Positions 282 to 61,991 of a stretch of DNA of 64,000 nucleotides are shown piece after piece. A program made the position numbers and the translations under genes. Source of the DNA: Waddliaceae bacterium. Lineage in GTDB: Bacteria > Chlamydiota > Chlamydiia > Chlamydiales > Waddliaceae. Every line of letters begins with the position of its first letter. Position 1 is the stretch's first letter. Location: NCBI GenBank assembly GCA_963724325.1, contig CAVRUH010000001.1, forward strand, positions 992,001 to 1,056,000, in the 5' to 3' direction. Below the pieces are notes generated by a model. That model saw only the letters and a list, made by a program, of their open reading frames with translations. It did no database searches and was not told where the DNA came from.

Positions 282-340
282 AATCGCAATTCATAAAACT
301 TTTCACAACGCAAAGGAGCAAAAGGCGCAAAGGCGCAAAG
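282..340. repeat. half-copy of dispersed palindromic repeat (modules aatcgcaattc + caacgcaaaggagcaaaaggcg)
   Basis: CAACGCAAAGGAGCAAAAGGCG is identical to the left stem arm at 29441-29462. Confidence 0.7.
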
Positions 341-410
341 AAGAAAAAGAAAGAAGGTACCCACCCCTTTTAATAATTTTCCCTCATACTCATTTTTGCT
401 AATCCTGCCC

Positions 411-1000
411 ATCCTGCCGCTTGCGATCCTTCATATCCTGTTCTTTTAAGGGATAACAGGATATGCAAGATCGCAAGCGGCAGGATATGAATGATAAAAG
501 TAATTGACATCATCTTCCTATAATCCTTCATATCCTGCCGCTTGCGATCCTTCGTATCCTGTTCTTTTAAGGGATTGCAGGATATGCAAGATCGCAAGCG
601 GCAGGATATGAATGATAAAAGTAATTGACATCATCTTCCTATAATCCTTCATATCCTGCCGCTTGCGATCCTTCGTATCCTGTTCTTTTAAGGGATTGCA
701 GGATATGCAAGATCGCAAGCGGCAGGATATGAATGATAAAAGTAATTGACATCATCTTCCTATAATCCTTCATATCCTGCCGCTTGCGATCCTTCGTATC
801 CTGTTCTTTTAAGGGATTGCAGGATATGCAAGATCGCAAGCGGCAGGATATGAATGATAAAAGTAATTGACATCATCTTCCTATAATCCTTCATATCCTG
901 CCGCTTGCGATCCTTCGTATCCTGTTTTCCTTTTGCAGAGAGGTTAAAAAGGTATCAATATCAATGATCTCTCTCGTGTTCTCTGTGCAAAAGATATTTT
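411..1000. repeat. tandem array of 121-bp REP-like palindromic units (about 4.3 copies) plus shared tail
   Basis: ATCCTGCCGCTTGCGATCC recurs at 411, 532, 653, 774, 895; each unit contains the inverted arm GATCGCAAGCGGCAGGATATG; lies between convergent genes. Confidence 0.95.
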
Positions 1001-1035
1001 AGTTAATGCATATAGGATGGTTTGTGCCATTCACT

Positions 1036-1944
1036 TTATTTTTGTTGATGGCTAGACTTGAATTTGGAGATTTTTTCCATGCGGCGCTTTTCGCTCCAGG
1101 TAAGGGAATTTTCGCCATATTTTGAGATTTTGGTGAGCATTGCATCAATGAAACGGTCGTCATTTTGAAGTTGCGGCTCGCCAGATTTGAATTTTAATAT
1201 TTTTGCCGATTCTGCAGTTTGTTTACGTTTAAGGCGCGACTTTTTTCCTAAATTATTGAGAAAACGATCGATTTTGGCGGTCGCTGCAAAGGGACTTTCC
1301 ATGCCCCAGGCTATTGTGCCAATAAGATAAGCCGCTAGTGGACCTAAAAGATAAAAGAAGAGATAAACAACTTCCAGGGTAGAAATATGGATTAAGAAAA
1401 TGCCCCCAAGGATGGCGACCGTTAACCATTTCACTTTAACCGGGAAAGTCATCATCAGAAAGATCTCACTTTCTGGATCAGTCAGCATCCAAATAGTGAA
1501 TAGAGCCAATATAACAGGAGTGGGTCCAGAAAAAATATAGTTCGGTGCAATGAATGAGGCTGCAAGGCCAGCTAAAATTCCCGTTCCAAAATAAAGATAA
1601 ATAAATTCTTTTGAACCAATTCGATTATATATCACTGTTCCCACAGTCCACACAATATACATCTGAAAGGCTAGGGTAATCAGCAGATTAAAACTTATTC
1701 CATTATAACCCTGAGGGAGCACAAATAAATAAGAGACCGGCTGCCACACAAAATAGTTGCTTATTCCATTATCCCATGAAAGACTTAGCCACTCTTGCGG
1801 TCCCGAAAATCCAAAAAGCTGAAAAAATGATGGCTCAATCAAAGCAGCAAAAAGACTGATGATAATCGTAGCGAAAATAATATTTCGCACCGCACGCGGC
1901 GTAAACTCCGGTCTAAAACTTAGCTGTGTTTCCGTATAACTCAT
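1036..1944 (-). CDS. rhomboid-family intramembrane protease-like protein with C-terminal cytoplasmic domain
   Basis: multiple TM segments, WQPVSYLF motif, C-terminal 'IDAMLTKISKYGENSLTWSEK'; ATG at 1944 preferred over 1983; catalytic residues look degenerate. Confidence 0.75.
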   Translation of the reverse strand: MSYTETQLSFRPEFTPRAVRNIIFATIIISLFAALIEPSFFQLFGFSGPQEWLSLSWDNGISNYFVWQPVSYLFVLPQGYNGISFNLLITLAFQMYIVWTVGTVIYNRIGSKEFIYLYFGTGILAGLAASFIAPNYIFSGPTPVILALFTIWMLTDPESEIFLMMTFPVKVKWLTVAILGGIFLIHISTLEVVYLFFYLLGPLAAYLIGTIAWGMESPFAATAKIDRFLNNLGKKSRLKRKQTAESAKILKFKSGEPQLQNDDRFIDAMLTKISKYGENSLTWSEKRRMEKISKFKSSHQQK

Positions 1945-59282: not shown

Positions 59283-59425
59283 AATGACATCATAAAGATG
59301 CGAAGCATAAAAATCAATGTTTTTGCTCTGGAAAAATTAAATCCAAACCTTTAAACTGATCTTGTGAAAAAAATAATTGTTGAAAAGGCAAAAGAATGGT
59401 AAAACTGGGAAAGTCCTAAAACCAA

Positions 59426-61282
59426 GTGAGACAGAACATTAAACTAGAACAAGAAACAGTCAAGACTGAAGGTGTAAGCGGAGCCAAAACGCTGGGAGAT
59501 TACACACTTATCAAACAAATTGGCCATGGTGCCCTTGGAGCGGTATTTCTTGCAGAACACCGTTTTATGAAAAAACACTTCGCCATCAAAGTCCTACCCC
59601 CAGATTTGAGCACCGATAGAACCTTTATTCAACGTTTTGAAGAAGAAGTAAGTCTTCTAGCTACTCTCGATCATCCCAATATCGTAAAAATCCATAACAT
59701 TTCTTACGCAGATGGACAGTATTTTCTTGTCACAGAATGTATTGTGGATGGAGATGGAGAAACCACAAATCTTGCACAATATATGCTCAGTCGAGGCGAT
59801 TCCCTCCGCGAAGAAGAACTCTTTAATCTGCTCAGCCAAATCGCACAGGCGCTCGATTATGCGCACCATCTCAAAGGTAATGGCAAAGGAATTGTCCACC
59901 GCGGAATCAAACTAAATAACGTCCTGGTGAGCAAAGGTCAAAACGGGGTCAATTTACTTCTGTCTGATTTCGGCCTTTCTCGAATTATGGGCTCAGGTAC
60001 CTTTTTAACAAGAACCTTCAAGGCAGTTTCTGAAGCACTAGGAGTCTCCAAAGGATCAGCTGAAATCGAAAAGTTAACTCCACTCCATACCTCATTTTTA
60101 CAAGGCTTTAACTTCCTAGCTCCTGAACAAAAAAGAATTGGTGCGACAGAAAAAGTTGATATGAAAGCTGACGTCTATGCTTTCGGCATCCTCGCCTATT
60201 ATATGATCATGGGATACCTTCCTGAAGGGTATTTTGAAATGCCTTCCGATAAGCATCTCATGGAATGGGATTGGGATCTCCTCATCAAAAAGTGCCTCAG
60301 CCGCGACCCTGAAAACCGTCCCGAGTTCTTAATGCAGACTCTAGATTTAATTAAAACCATTCCTGAGGGCAGCGTGATAAATCCCTTAGCCGAAGAACTC
60401 CTGCAGCAAACAACAAATGAAGTTAAATCACTCAAACCAATTATCCAACGCGAATCAATTGAACGACCAAGGGTGGATCCCGATCCTGCTTCGATTTTCC
60501 AAATTGATACCGCAGTCAAACATTACATCCCAGAAGAAAAGATCGTCAAACATGTAGAACCCATCCAAACAGATATGGTGGTTATTAAGGGTGGAACTTT
60601 TTGGAGAGGCAGCGATGATGGCAGCAGAGATGAGCAGCCTGGTCATAAAATTACCATTTCAAGTTTTGCAATCGACATCCATCCCGTCACCAATGAGCAG
60701 TTCGTTAGGTTCCTCGAGGTTATGGGAGCAGTAAAAGACAGCAATCATAATGACATCATTCGACTCAGAGATTCCAGAATCTTCAGCAGTGCAGGAAAAT
60801 TTAGTATCGAATCAGGATATTTAAAACATCCTGTTGTAGGGGTAACCTGGTATGGCGCCGTAGCCTATGCCCGTTGGGTAGGAAAACGTCTTCCAACAGA
60901 AGCTGAATGGGAAATTGCTGCCCGTGGAGGCATCGAGAATGCCCTCTATCCTACTGGCGAGGACATCGAAAAGCCGCAAGCCAATTTCTTTAGTTCAGAT
61001 ACTCTAGCCGTGATGAGCTATGCTCCAAACGGTTATGCCCTTTTTGACATGGCAGGAAACGTTTATGAATGGTGTCAAGATTGGTATGGATATAACTACT
61101 ATGAAACTTCAGTGCAAGAACCCATTAATCCAAAAGGGCCTCGACAAGGGGAATACCGTGTCCTTCGAGGAGGCTGTTGGAAGAGCTTAAAGGATGATTT
61201 GCGTTGCTCAAGAAGGCACCGAAATAATCCTGGAACAGTAAACAGTACCTACGGTTTCCGCTGCTGCACCGATGTCGAATAA
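59426..61282 (+). CDS. pkn1: Ser/Thr kinase-like domain + FGE-sulfatase domain (chlamydial Pkn1)
   Basis: IGHGALGAVF, AIKVL, DFG, APE, DVYAFG; C-terminal HPVVGVTWYGA, RLPTEAEWE, DMAGNVYEW, GFRC. Confidence 0.88.
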   Translation: MRQNIKLEQETVKTEGVSGAKTLGDYTLIKQIGHGALGAVFLAEHRFMKKHFAIKVLPPDLSTDRTFIQRFEEEVSLLATLDHPNIVKIHNISYADGQYFLVTECIVDGDGETTNLAQYMLSRGDSLREEELFNLLSQIAQALDYAHHLKGNGKGIVHRGIKLNNVLVSKGQNGVNLLLSDFGLSRIMGSGTFLTRTFKAVSEALGVSKGSAEIEKLTPLHTSFLQGFNFLAPEQKRIGATEKVDMKADVYAFGILAYYMIMGYLPEGYFEMPSDKHLMEWDWDLLIKKCLSRDPENRPEFLMQTLDLIKTIPEGSVINPLAEELLQQTTNEVKSLKPIIQRESIERPRVDPDPASIFQIDTAVKHYIPEEKIVKHVEPIQTDMVVIKGGTFWRGSDDGSRDEQPGHKITISSFAIDIHPVTNEQFVRFLEVMGAVKDSNHNDIIRLRDSRIFSSAGKFSIESGYLKHPVVGVTWYGAVAYARWVGKRLPTEAEWEIAARGGIENALYPTGEDIEKPQANFFSSDTLAVMSYAPNGYALFDMAGNVYEWCQDWYGYNYYETSVQEPINPKGPRQGEYRVLRGGCWKSLKDDLRCSRRHRNNPGTVNSTYGFRCCTDVE

Positions 61283-61769
61283 ATCTCATTCAATACTTTT
61301 TGTGTGTTTAGCCAATATATGCCGTTCTCCAGCCGCTCAAGGCACGTTGCTCCATCTTGCCAAAGGAACGGAACTTGAAGAATTGATTTATGTTGAGAGC
61401 TGTGGATTAGGAGATTGGCATCAGGGTAAACTTCCAGATCAAAGAATGCGAGAAGCTGCTATGCAAAGAGGAATTGCCCTTGCAAGCAGAGCACAAGGGA
61501 TCCAACCCGATTTCTTTTATCGCTTTGATTATATATTAGCCGCTGACCATTCTGTCCTAAATCAGTTGTATGATTTAGCGAGTTCACCTGAACACAAGGC
61601 AAAAATCCATCTGATCACAAAGTTTAGTCGCTCCTTCCCCAATGAGGAGATCCCCGACCCCTACTACGAAGGGCAGATGTCCTTTGACCTTGTTCTGGAT
61701 ATGCTCGAAGATTCCTGCAAAGGCCTCCTCGAGGAACTCAACAAAGAACAAAAAAATGAACAAAACTAA
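61272..61769 (+). CDS. low-molecular-weight phosphotyrosine phosphatase
   Basis: FVCLANICRSP (CX5R), IPDPYY. Confidence 0.93.
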   Translation: MSNKSHSILFVCLANICRSPAAQGTLLHLAKGTELEELIYVESCGLGDWHQGKLPDQRMREAAMQRGIALASRAQGIQPDFFYRFDYILAADHSVLNQLYDLASSPEHKAKIHLITKFSRSFPNEEIPDPYYEGQMSFDLVLDMLEDSCKGLLEELNKEQKNEQN

Positions 61770-61991
61770 CAATTCACAAAACTATAAAAACACGAGCTCG
61801 AATCGCATTTCAAAAAACTTTTTACAATCCCATTTTTTCTTATCCTGCTTATCCTGCCGCCTGCGATCATGCATATCCTGTTCTTTTAAGGGATAACAGG
61901 ATATGCATGATCGCAGGCGGCAGGATAAGCAAGATAAGAAAAATTTTAAATGCGATTCGAGCCCGCGTTTTTATAGTTTTGTGAATTGTTA
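61767..61991. repeat. three-layer nested palindrome spanning stop codon to stop codon
   Basis: TAACAATTCACAAAACTATAAAAAC ... GAATCGCATTT ... [ATCCTGCCGC/GCGGCAGGAT REP] ... AAATGCGATTC ... GTTTTTATAGTTTTGTGAATTGTTA. Confidence 0.92.

What the first reader, a model, noticed from the sequence alone, without database searches (positions are those of the whole stretch)
282..61991. Russian-doll palindromes: interchangeable hairpin modules nested in one another at gene 3' ends
Seen: intergenic hairpins are built from reusable modules: A = AACAATTCACAAAA(C/T)TATAA, B = GAATCGCATTTCAAAAAA, C = CAGGATATGCAGGATCGCAAGCGGCAGGATATG, D = CAACGCAAAGGAGCAAAAGGCG, E = GTAGAGACGGG, F = CACAGAG-type (AACACCGA..TCACAGA / TGTGTTCTCTGTG). 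They combine concentrically: 61767-61991 = A[B[C]]; 29385-29541 = A-half + B[D[E]]; 21228-21316 = A[other]; 42512-42753 = C[F]; 282-340 = B+D half; 58212-58260 = F half. All lie downstream of a gene. Established: GTAG-led hairpins like E are typical REPs served by HUH tyrosine transposases (RAYT/TnpA-REP). Inference: several REP families insert preferentially into the apex of pre-existing hairpins, implying a structure-targeted spreading mechanism. Modules C, D and F have a roughly 8-9-nt internal periodicity resembling repeats I associate with GxxExxY nuclease genes (recollection, unverified). No candidate mobiliser flanked by these modules is in this window.
Basis: partly seen in the sequence, partly recalled or inferred. 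Interest (0 to 1): 0.72.

Follow-up and report, generated by a model that had tools for sequence, protein, structure and literature searches.

The report
Mobile elements stacked inside hairpin repeats
The nested DNA hairpins are real: a 140-base mini-transposon has landed at fixed spots in the arms of a 200-copy repeat, and that repeat and a second one bracket small genes with a predicted nuclease fold that likely spread them, a pairing I did not find described in the papers I could search.

Summary
The nests are real and genome-wide (67 of 163 repeat loci mix families), but the modules are not six interchangeable apex-seeking REPs.

- **F** is a ~140-bp MITE with IS231-type (IS4) ends. It makes 10-11-bp target duplications (14 of 30 end pairs, 8 exact) at two fixed sites in the C arm. 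Full-length IS4 relatives in other Chlamydiales also sit in C-type repeats.
- **Centred C[F] nests** (7 of 30) likely arise afterwards by deletion to a target in the other arm; 3 of 7 end at non-mirror sites.
- **C and B-D** (B is D's outer part) bracket two GxxExxY genes elsewhere in this genome. Protein clades track repeat type, and C-rich genomes are enriched for the C-clade gene (14 of 25 versus 12 of 175).
- **Composites** such as D[E] and F[C] were copied as units.

That GxxExxY moves the repeats is inferred, not shown. How E entered D, C entered D, or D entered A is unexplained. The scan noted the GxxExxY-palindrome pairing in other genomes, and the IS231-like MITE at another locus of this genome.

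The parts
281..340 (+). Left arm of the B-D palindrome (B is its outer part); D type brackets GxxExxY gene 2 elsewhere in the genome
400..926 (.). Tandem array (121-bp unit) of alternating C arms inside the B-D element
927..1001 (-). Linker plus degenerate right half of the F MITE (relic of the F[C] composite)
21228..21316 (.). A-family hairpin (outer A plus its own CGCAGAG-type inner arm), at the metG stop codon; no target duplication
22464..22945 (.).
29386..29548 (.). A half + B-D[E] composite
29463..29501 (.). E, a GTAG-led hairpin replacing the centre of D; same junctions at four loci; no duplication
36050..36590 (.).
42518..42557 (+). Left C arm of the host hairpin
42583..42593 (+). Left copy of the 11-bp target duplication (unit 1 of the right C arm)
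42594..42736 (.). F: 143-bp MITE with IS231-type IS4 terminal inverted repeats enclosing a CACAGAG-type (GxxExxY-type) hairpin
42737..42747 (+). Right copy of the 11-bp target duplication (2 mismatches to the left copy)
58198..58260 (+). Degenerate left half of the F MITE in a convergent gap
61767..61991 (.). A[B[C]]: an outward-facing C hairpin in place of the D core, inside B and A arms, between convergent LMW-phosphatase and BioY genes

Best explanation
The nested palindromes are layers left by different mobile elements that landed in one another: an IS4-type mini-transposon (F) sits at fixed sequence sites in the arms of a repeat (C), and the C and D repeats bracket GxxExxY genes whose predicted nucleases likely spread them. 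Step 1 (association shown, mechanism inferred): C, B-D, the inner part of F and probably the inner part of A are gene-less forms of GxxExxY cassettes, that is, inverted arrays of a ~9-bp unit; each protein clade likely recognises its own array and copies it in trans, much as RAYTs are proposed to copy REPINs. Step 2 (shown): F inserts with a 10-11-bp duplication at GGA-N5-RGG-like sites, which the 9-bp period of C supplies twice per arm; its transposase was not found in this assembly, but full-length relatives in other genomes also sit in C-type repeats. Step 3 (inferred): because the host is a palindrome, an equally good target lies in the other arm; a transposase-made adjacent deletion, or recombination between two inserts, removes the host centre and leaves F at the apex between inverted flanks. 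Step 4 (pattern shown, cause inferred): the two arms of a hairpin are made alike, and composites are copied as units or amplified in tandem. Other elements (a serine-recombinase element, an 8-bp-duplicating MITE) use the same repeats as landing sites.
For: F: 88 ends; 30 pairs with 14 direct duplications (8 exact; re-pairing null 9.4% and 1.8%). 40 of 44 C-mapped ends lie at two 11-bp registers. In 5 of 7 reconstructed empty sites the target is in a stem 30-40 nt from the axis. The ends fit the published IS231 signature CAT-------AA--TAA with 10-12-bp repeats. The same end precedes an IS4 transposase above the NF033592 cut-off; 5 of 5 full-length relatives checked have the YREK motif; L131 has an exact 11-bp duplication inside a C repeat. 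Centring: a tandem before/after pair at C11:57071 and 57289; 3 of 7 inverted loci end at non-mirror units (read by eye). GxxExxY: both genes pass TIGR04256; PD-(D/E)XK fold, pLDDT 88.9; inverted repeats >=18 nt around 32 of 53 genes against 0 of 40 control genes; 14 of 15 C-labelled proteins in one starred clade; 18 label changes against 32.8 shuffled. C-rich genomes: 14 of 25 with a >=50%-identity protein against 12 of 175 without. Arm mirroring: 60 of 141 variant columns against 18.8 in permutations.
Against: No call shows a GxxExxY protein moving anything. The one burst found (30 near-identical copies in G007) is cargo inside an IS630 element, and the G018 copies lie next to an IS5 transposase. 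12 C-rich genomes lack a close C-clade protein and 11 genomes with one are not C-rich. No A-type or F-type GxxExxY gene and no IS231-like transposase was found in this 84.6%-complete assembly. 10 of 30 F pairs fit neither class (two of them fit after a 1-nt shift). The inverted share (6-7 of 30) is barely above the 14.3% expected if flanks were re-paired between loci, so some inverted loci may come from inter-locus recombination. The model does not explain how E entered D, C entered D or D entered A. The outer ends of A and B have no identified parent. Tree labels were automatic and noisy (L014, L021 and L249 look mislabelled), A-labelled rows were not clustered (500 of 500 shuffles as low), and ten loci came from a search with the C-type protein.
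Confidence: 0.68

Rival explanations
1. Structure-targeted apex insertion: the enzymes recognise an extruded hairpin or cruciform, cut at symmetric positions and replace its centre in one step.
For: E replaces the exact centre of D with no duplication. Inverted flanks are 7 of 30 pairs here and 7 of 17 in other genomes, with mirror symmetry running 25-66 nt outward in five of them, including a full-length IS4 (L129). GTAG dimers inside longer palindromes and IS insertions at REP symmetry axes are in print. GxxExxY shares the fold of junction resolvases, though these are not the top hits.
Against: 14 of 30 F pairs have direct duplications in arms. 40 of 44 ends sit at two sequence registers, and the inverted cases use the same registers. 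A one-step symmetric attack predicts mirror endpoints, but 3 of 7 are not mirror. D[E] is one event copied four times.
Confidence: 0.17
2. Survivorship: elements insert widely, and nests pile up only because 3' gaps and existing repeats are the places where insertions do no harm.
For: Strong bias against divergent gaps (11 vs 27.8). 1563 motif sites in coding DNA are available, and only 7 of 132 loci lie outside gaps.
Against: It does not explain base-exact registers, seven serine-recombinase insertions at one dinucleotide, or C-type targets for the same IS4 family in other genomes. 67 mixed loci against 27.8 (max 44) under random placement in non-divergent gaps, although composite copying inflates the 67. 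It probably contributes without being sufficient.
Confidence: 0.1
3. One fixed composite element is decaying, and the modules are its fragments.
For: D[E], F[C] (two linkers found 45 and 39 times) and D[C] share junctions across loci; B is part of D.
Against: Solo loci exist for C (52), D (10), F (10), A (6) and E (1). Both C[F] and F[C] occur. Duplications differ between loci. C, the F ends and the inner F hairpin occur separately in other genomes.
Confidence: 0.04
4. Assembly artefact (fold-back chimeras).
For: Near-perfect palindromes; no read set covering the repeats was available.
Against: Arms differ by substitutions, the families recur in many independent genomes, and target duplications are locus-specific.
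Confidence: 0.01

Closest known systems
IS elements that target REPs (Tobes and Pareja 2006, PMC1525189, passages read), in particular the IS4-family ISRm22
   Same: An IS4-family element breaks a palindromic extragenic repeat at a fixed position and duplicates the target; some copies lose matching direct repeats, which the paper ascribes to recombination or adjacent deletion.
   Different: Here the inserting unit is a non-autonomous MITE that itself carries a hairpin; the target is an arm of a GxxExxY-type array, not the symmetry axis of a REP; centre-replacing inverted-flank products are common.
IS231 subgroup of IS4 (De Palmenaer 2008, PMC2266710, passages read); MIC231 cassettes (titles in its reference list only)
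   Same: End signature CAT-------AA--TAA, 10-12-bp duplications, YREK transposase in full-length relatives, ends that carry passengers.
   Different: The paper finds IS231 almost only in Firmicutes; these are in Chlamydiales, the passenger is a palindromic repeat, and the target here is GGA-N5-RGG-like.
REPIN-RAYT systems (Bertels and Rainey 2011, PMC3116915, passages read)
   Same: Inverted doublets forming hairpins, extragenic, tandem clusters, and each family clustered beside its own single-copy enzyme gene.
   Different: The enzyme beside C and D is a PD-(D/E)XK GxxExxY protein, not an HUH Y1 transposase; arms are 9-bp periodic arrays without a GTAG end; no excision intermediate was seen.
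GTAG REP dimers inside longer palindromes, and mosaic intergenic regions of Neisseria (Di Nocera 2013, PMC3733652, passages read); BIMEs (abstracts only)
   Same: A GTAG-led hairpin centred in another palindrome, as E in D; mosaics of several repeat families.
   Different: Up to three or four layers from different enzyme classes; no RAYT flanked by E in this assembly.
GxxExxY / PDDEXK_3 family (TIGR04256, PF13366; function 'Unknown' in PMC3424549, passage read)
   Same: Both genes pass the curated cut-offs; the model has the PD-(D/E)XK fold with invariant D72, E82 and K84.
   Different: The repeat partnership and the clade-to-repeat matching were not found in the searched papers.

Membership tests
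IS4 family, IS231 subgroup (F as its MITE) | Terminal inverted repeats CAT-------AA--TAA | tested here: met
IS4 family, IS231 subgroup (F as its MITE) | 10-12-bp target duplication | tested here: met
   14 of 30 pairs direct, 8 exact; two 11-bp registers
IS4 family, IS231 subgroup (F as its MITE) | Autonomous partner with the same ends and an IS4 (YREK) transposase | tested here: met
   In relatives only: NF033592 156 bits vs cut-off 115; matches in 9 of 250 genomes; YREK in 5 of 5
IS4 family, IS231 subgroup (F as its MITE) | Partner transposase present in the same genome | tested here: inconclusive
   Not found with this query; assembly 84.6% complete
IS4 family, IS231 subgroup (F as its MITE) | Transposase clusters with IS231 rather than ISH8 proteins | not tested
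   Subgroup assigned from the ends and duplication length only
REPIN-RAYT (C and B-D) | Extragenic inverted doublets forming hairpins, multi-copy | tested here: met
REPIN-RAYT (C and B-D) | Family clustered around an HUH Y1 RAYT gene | tested here: not met
   C and D bracket GxxExxY genes; the one RAYT-like gene (79.2 bits, cut-off 80) has its own repeat
REPIN-RAYT (C and B-D) | Excision or transposition intermediates in population reads | not testable with these tools
   Only sparse contigs were available
GTAG REP family (E) | GTAG tag on a short multi-copy palindrome | tested here: met
   Five hairpins, each arm led by GTAG; whether each arm has its own REP stem-loop was not tested
GTAG REP family (E) | Cognate RAYT flanked by the repeat | tested here: inconclusive
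   The only RAYT-like gene is flanked by another repeat; assembly incomplete
GxxExxY / PDDEXK_3 proteins (two genes outside the window) | Profile score above the curated cut-off | tested here: met
   TIGR04256 130 and 133 bits vs 35; PF13366
GxxExxY / PDDEXK_3 proteins (two genes outside the window) | PD-(D/E)XK fold with intact acidic and lysine residues | tested here: met
   Gene 1 only: model pLDDT 88.9; Cas4 SSO0001 E 7e-5; SwaI Z 8.4, rmsd 3.5 over 117; D72, E82, K84 invariant in 68 sequences
GxxExxY / PDDEXK_3 proteins (two genes outside the window) | Nuclease or mobilising activity on the cognate repeat | not testable with these tools
   Needs biochemistry or genetics
IS-derived MITE (A or B outer ends) | Target duplication and an IS with the same ends | tested here: inconclusive
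   No duplication in 8 A pairs; no parent in 200 order genomes or in the metagenome scan

The most novel reading that the evidence does not exclude
GxxExxY proteins are a second, non-HUH class of repeat-mobilising enzymes: each clade recognises its own 9-bp-periodic palindrome, cuts it in its extruded form and copies it into other hairpins, replacing their centres, so that the Russian dolls record a new cut-and-copy mechanism layered with ordinary IS4 transposition.
Probability: 0.3. Interest if true: 0.85.

Novelty: new variant of a known kind. Interest (0 to 1): 0.56.

Why it matters
The nesting itself reduces mostly to known processes: IS and MITE insertion into palindromic repeats, then deletion and copying. 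Two things go beyond that. First, it ties an orphan nuclease-fold family (PF13366, function listed as unknown) to specific repeat families, with two enzyme-repeat pairs in one genome as built-in specificity controls; this makes the question of whether anything other than a RAYT spreads REP-like repeats directly testable. Second, an IS231-like family in Chlamydiales repeatedly uses these repeats as landing sites and often ends up centred in them between inverted flanks, a simple route by which long layered palindromes grow at gene ends. If the nuclease link holds, it is a new class of compact (about 135 aa) sequence-specific mobilisers.

Tried and rejected
1. G007's dispersed identical GxxExxY copies looked like self-mobility; 30 of 32 fetched loci carry one cassette inside an IS630 element (27 share its left junction), so rejected as evidence.

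2. I hoped for cassette-free IS630 copies to read the cassette's insertion footprint; relatives outside G007 were only 66-70% identical.

3. An 88-bp and a 286-bp MITE in G027 first suggested that hairpins insert with an inverted duplication of the flank; the alignment fits the short one being a deletion product of the long one equally well, so dropped.

4. Empty orthologous sites in the same-genus genome G001: gene order breaks at or near these loci, so no base-level comparison was possible.

5. Sequencing runs: no RNA holder listed; DNA contigs covered only short pieces and none spanned a nest.

6. Parents for the A and B ends: pattern hits in 200 order genomes were at control level (A) or looked like chance hits when read (B); the 91 metagenome hits for A have unrelated flanks.

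7. No IS66 transposase (PF03050) was found in this assembly for the J MITE.

8. No consistent target duplication was found around 19 outward C hairpins (longest direct repeat 0-7 nt in 18, 11 nt in one).

9. The single-sequence structure prediction was unusable (pLDDT 38), and no PDB sequence match was found.

10. Literature searches: 'GxxExxY' 3 papers (2 listed, listing and abstract starts only, neither on repeats); 'PF13366' 2 papers; REP + PDDEXK + nuclease 0. The library lacks most subscription journals, and supplements were not read.

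
Full report
SETTING. The window is C1:992001-1056000 of G000 (2.37 Mb, 11 contigs, 84.6% complete). A genome of the same order is titled Chlamydiales bacterium. 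Positions written C1: C5: and so on are genome coordinates; the others are window coordinates.

1. OBSERVATION. Genome-wide counts are C 182, D 31, A 21, B 18 and E 10, and F has 88 ends against 6 for a reversed pattern. Of 163 loci with two or more module hits, 67 mix families. Random placement in 734 non-divergent gaps gives 27.8 (max 44), but composite copying inflates the 67. Solo loci exist for C (52), D (10), F (10), A (6) and E (1). Of 132 loci, 125 lie in gaps: 55 convergent, 59 tandem and 11 divergent, against 26.9, 70.3 and 27.8 expected; in tandem gaps 39 of 59 are nearer the upstream stop (simple ORF calls). B is not independent: 21 of 27 B arms join D directly. 21228-21316 is a plain A hairpin.

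2. F IS AN IS4-TYPE MITE THAT INSERTS IN ARMS. F is a 130-145-bp unit with terminal inverted repeats starting CATA(C/T)GCAT and an internal CACAGAG-type hairpin. Of 30 end pairs, 14 have direct duplications of 10-11 bp (8 exact), 6 have inverted flanks and 10 neither. Read by eye, C1:832505 becomes direct and C1:1108537 inverted after a 1-nt shift, C5:60187 is a doubtful direct call, and C1:407015 and C1:409798 are probably one event. Re-pairing flanks at random gives 9.4% direct, 1.8% exact and 14.3% inverted. 49 of 88 flanks are C-like against 0.16% background. Of 44 ends that map on the C arm, 40 fall at two registers, each 11 bp wide. In 5 of 7 reconstructed empty sites the target is paired in a stem 30-40 nt from the axis; the other two folded ambiguously. 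55 of 88 flanks fit GGA-N5-RGG within one mismatch (background 1.1%), and 45% of exact non-coding sites of this motif lie in C, so sequence largely explains the preference.

The ends match the IS231-subgroup signature and duplication length in PMC2266710 Table 1 (passages). The same end occurs in 14 of 200 other genomes of the order. In G013 it precedes an IS4 transposase above the cut-off. Relatives occur in 9 of 250 genomes and were not found in G000. L131 is a 1559-bp element with an exact 11-bp duplication inside a C repeat; L130 and L132 are also in C-type repeats; all five checked carry YREK.

3. HOW F BECOMES CENTRED. Seven G000 loci have the target on one side and its reverse complement on the other. 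At C11:57071 and 57289 a tandem pair shows the intact C hairpin and the same flanks with the centre replaced by F, so at least this event is local. In other genomes 7 of 17 pairs are inverted, 5 direct and 5 neither; mirror symmetry runs 25-66 nt in five, including a full-length IS4. In G000 three of the seven end at different units on the two sides (C1:646914, 927017, 1108537, read by eye), and all seven keep one end of each type. A single symmetric attack on a cruciform predicts mirror endpoints. Insertion followed by an adjacent deletion to the nearest good target, or recombination between two inserts, does not. Both routes are named in PMC1525189 for IS4-family ISRm22 copies that lack matching repeats (passages). 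This step is inferred, and the inverted share alone is not clearly above the re-pairing null.

4. C AND D BRACKET GxxExxY GENES. Two strong PF13366 hits lie outside the window; a third weak hit lies in a 542-aa frame. Gene 1 has C hairpins on both sides; gene 2 has a D arm upstream and only a weak remnant downstream. Both pass TIGR04256. The gene 1 model (68-sequence alignment, pLDDT 88.9) matches PD-(D/E)XK nucleases: Cas4 SSO0001 at E 7e-5, lambda exonuclease, and SwaI at Z 8.4; a shared fold shows no function. PF13366 is in 29 of 61 genomes. Of 62 loci examined, 53 had both flanks, and 32 of these have an inverted repeat of at least 18 nt across the gene, against 0 of 40 control genes. In a tree of 58 of the 62 proteins, 14 of 15 C-labelled rows form a starred clade, gene 2 groups with three D-labelled rows (100/92), and labels need 18 changes against 32.8 shuffled; A-labelled rows are not clustered. 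Labels were automatic, three look wrong by eye, ten loci came from a search with the C-type protein, and near-copies add clustering.

In 200 order genomes, 26 have ten or more C-type cores. By my tally, 14 of 25 genomes with a protein at least 50% identical to gene 1 are C-rich against 12 of 175 without, and 23 of 46 with any hit against 3 of 154 (Fisher; kin are not independent and many genomes are incomplete). F-type and A-type arrays bracket GxxExxY genes in relatives, and a naked F-type hairpin occurs in G001. So the inner part of F and probably of A are of the same kind. Against self-mobility: the G007 burst is IS630 cargo.

5. ARM HOMOGENISATION AND COPYING. In 33 two-arm C hairpins (35 less two interrupted by the recombinase element), 60 of 141 variant columns are mirrored against 18.8 in permutations (max 35), and 5 of 34 rare variants against 0.5. 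Symmetry runs on average 6.5 nt beyond the arm against 2.8 between loci (1 of 5000 permutations). C hairpins show no consistent duplication. D[E] has identical junctions at four loci, and the two F[C] linkers occur 45 and 39 times. Independent nesting events are therefore far fewer than nested loci.

6. WHAT REMAINS OPEN. E in D, C in D, D in A, C in F and the hairpin inside F are centred or nearly so, show no duplication and have no identified enzyme. GTAG dimers inside longer palindromes are in print (PMC3733652, passages). The outer ends of A and B were found only in G000. No RNA data bear on a role in termination.

7. COMPARISON AND NOVELTY. F is a new member of a known kind: an IS4 MITE that targets palindromic repeats. 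C and D resemble REPINs in layout (PMC3116915, passages) but fail the RAYT criterion. PF13366 is listed as of unknown function (PMC3424549), and I found no paper on its repeats. The scan has noted the pairing in at least 31 other genomes, and the IS231-like MITE and the recombinase element in this genome. I had read the F ends and duplications and matched them to the IS231 signature.

VERDICT. Observation confirmed, interpretation partly supported, new variant of a known kind, interest 0.56. Most novel reading (GxxExxY as a centre-replacing mobiliser): probability 0.3, interest 0.85 if true.

Noticed in passing
G000 C1:24026-29732, C1:440992-442815, C7:112451-114274, C7:230245-232068, C7:257358-259181: A large-serine-recombinase-like element (about 553-aa frame; family read by eye, not scanned) sits seven times at one dinucleotide of the C arm; already noted by the scan.
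   Followed up: partly
G000 C1:196737-197041, C1:419658-419928, C11:25204-25437: J, a MITE starting GTAAGCGTC, has 8-bp duplications in 3 of 7 bracketed composites, lands in F and in C, and carries the RAYT-associated hairpin as cargo. The IS66 label is recalled and also given by an earlier scan note; no IS66 gene was found here.
   Followed up: partly
G000 C5:207304-207855 (L004): RAYT-like gene (79.2 bits, cut-off 80) with a long tandem array of its own palindrome upstream; that family has 31 loci.
   Followed up: partly
L034-L063 (G007) and L069-L073 (G018): GxxExxY cassettes lie immediately behind the stop codon of an IS630 transposase (G007) and of an IS5 transposase (G018), and are multiplied as cargo.
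   Followed up: partly
G000 C1:211343-214299 and six more hits: A 459-aa transposase in eight places; the two copies read sit in a further palindrome family, CTGCTGTCTCCGACAGCAG type. An earlier scan note calls it IS701-like.
   Followed up: no
window 10665-13530: Two tandem IS30 copies 1402 bp apart, with G+C-rich hairpins beyond the transposase, followed by an IS481-like element below the cut-off.
   Followed up: no
L281, L286, L288, L092 (G138, G027, G056, G090): In other Chlamydiales the same IS231-like ends enclose other layered palindromes of 264-390 bp, so hairpin-carrying MITEs arose several times.
   Followed up: partly
L300 (G001) vs window 22464-22945: Both genomes have an F-type hairpin just downstream of spoU, without IS4 ends in G001; ancestral or coincidental.
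   Followed up: no
window 15969-17117, 48077-49432, 51348-52538, 63009-63926: Four AAA_14 + DUF4143 ATPase genes in one 64-kb window.
   Followed up: no
window 43860-44330: A stretch that reads to my eye like a frameshifted KDO8P-synthase gene next to a tRNA-like sequence (not scanned).
   Followed up: no
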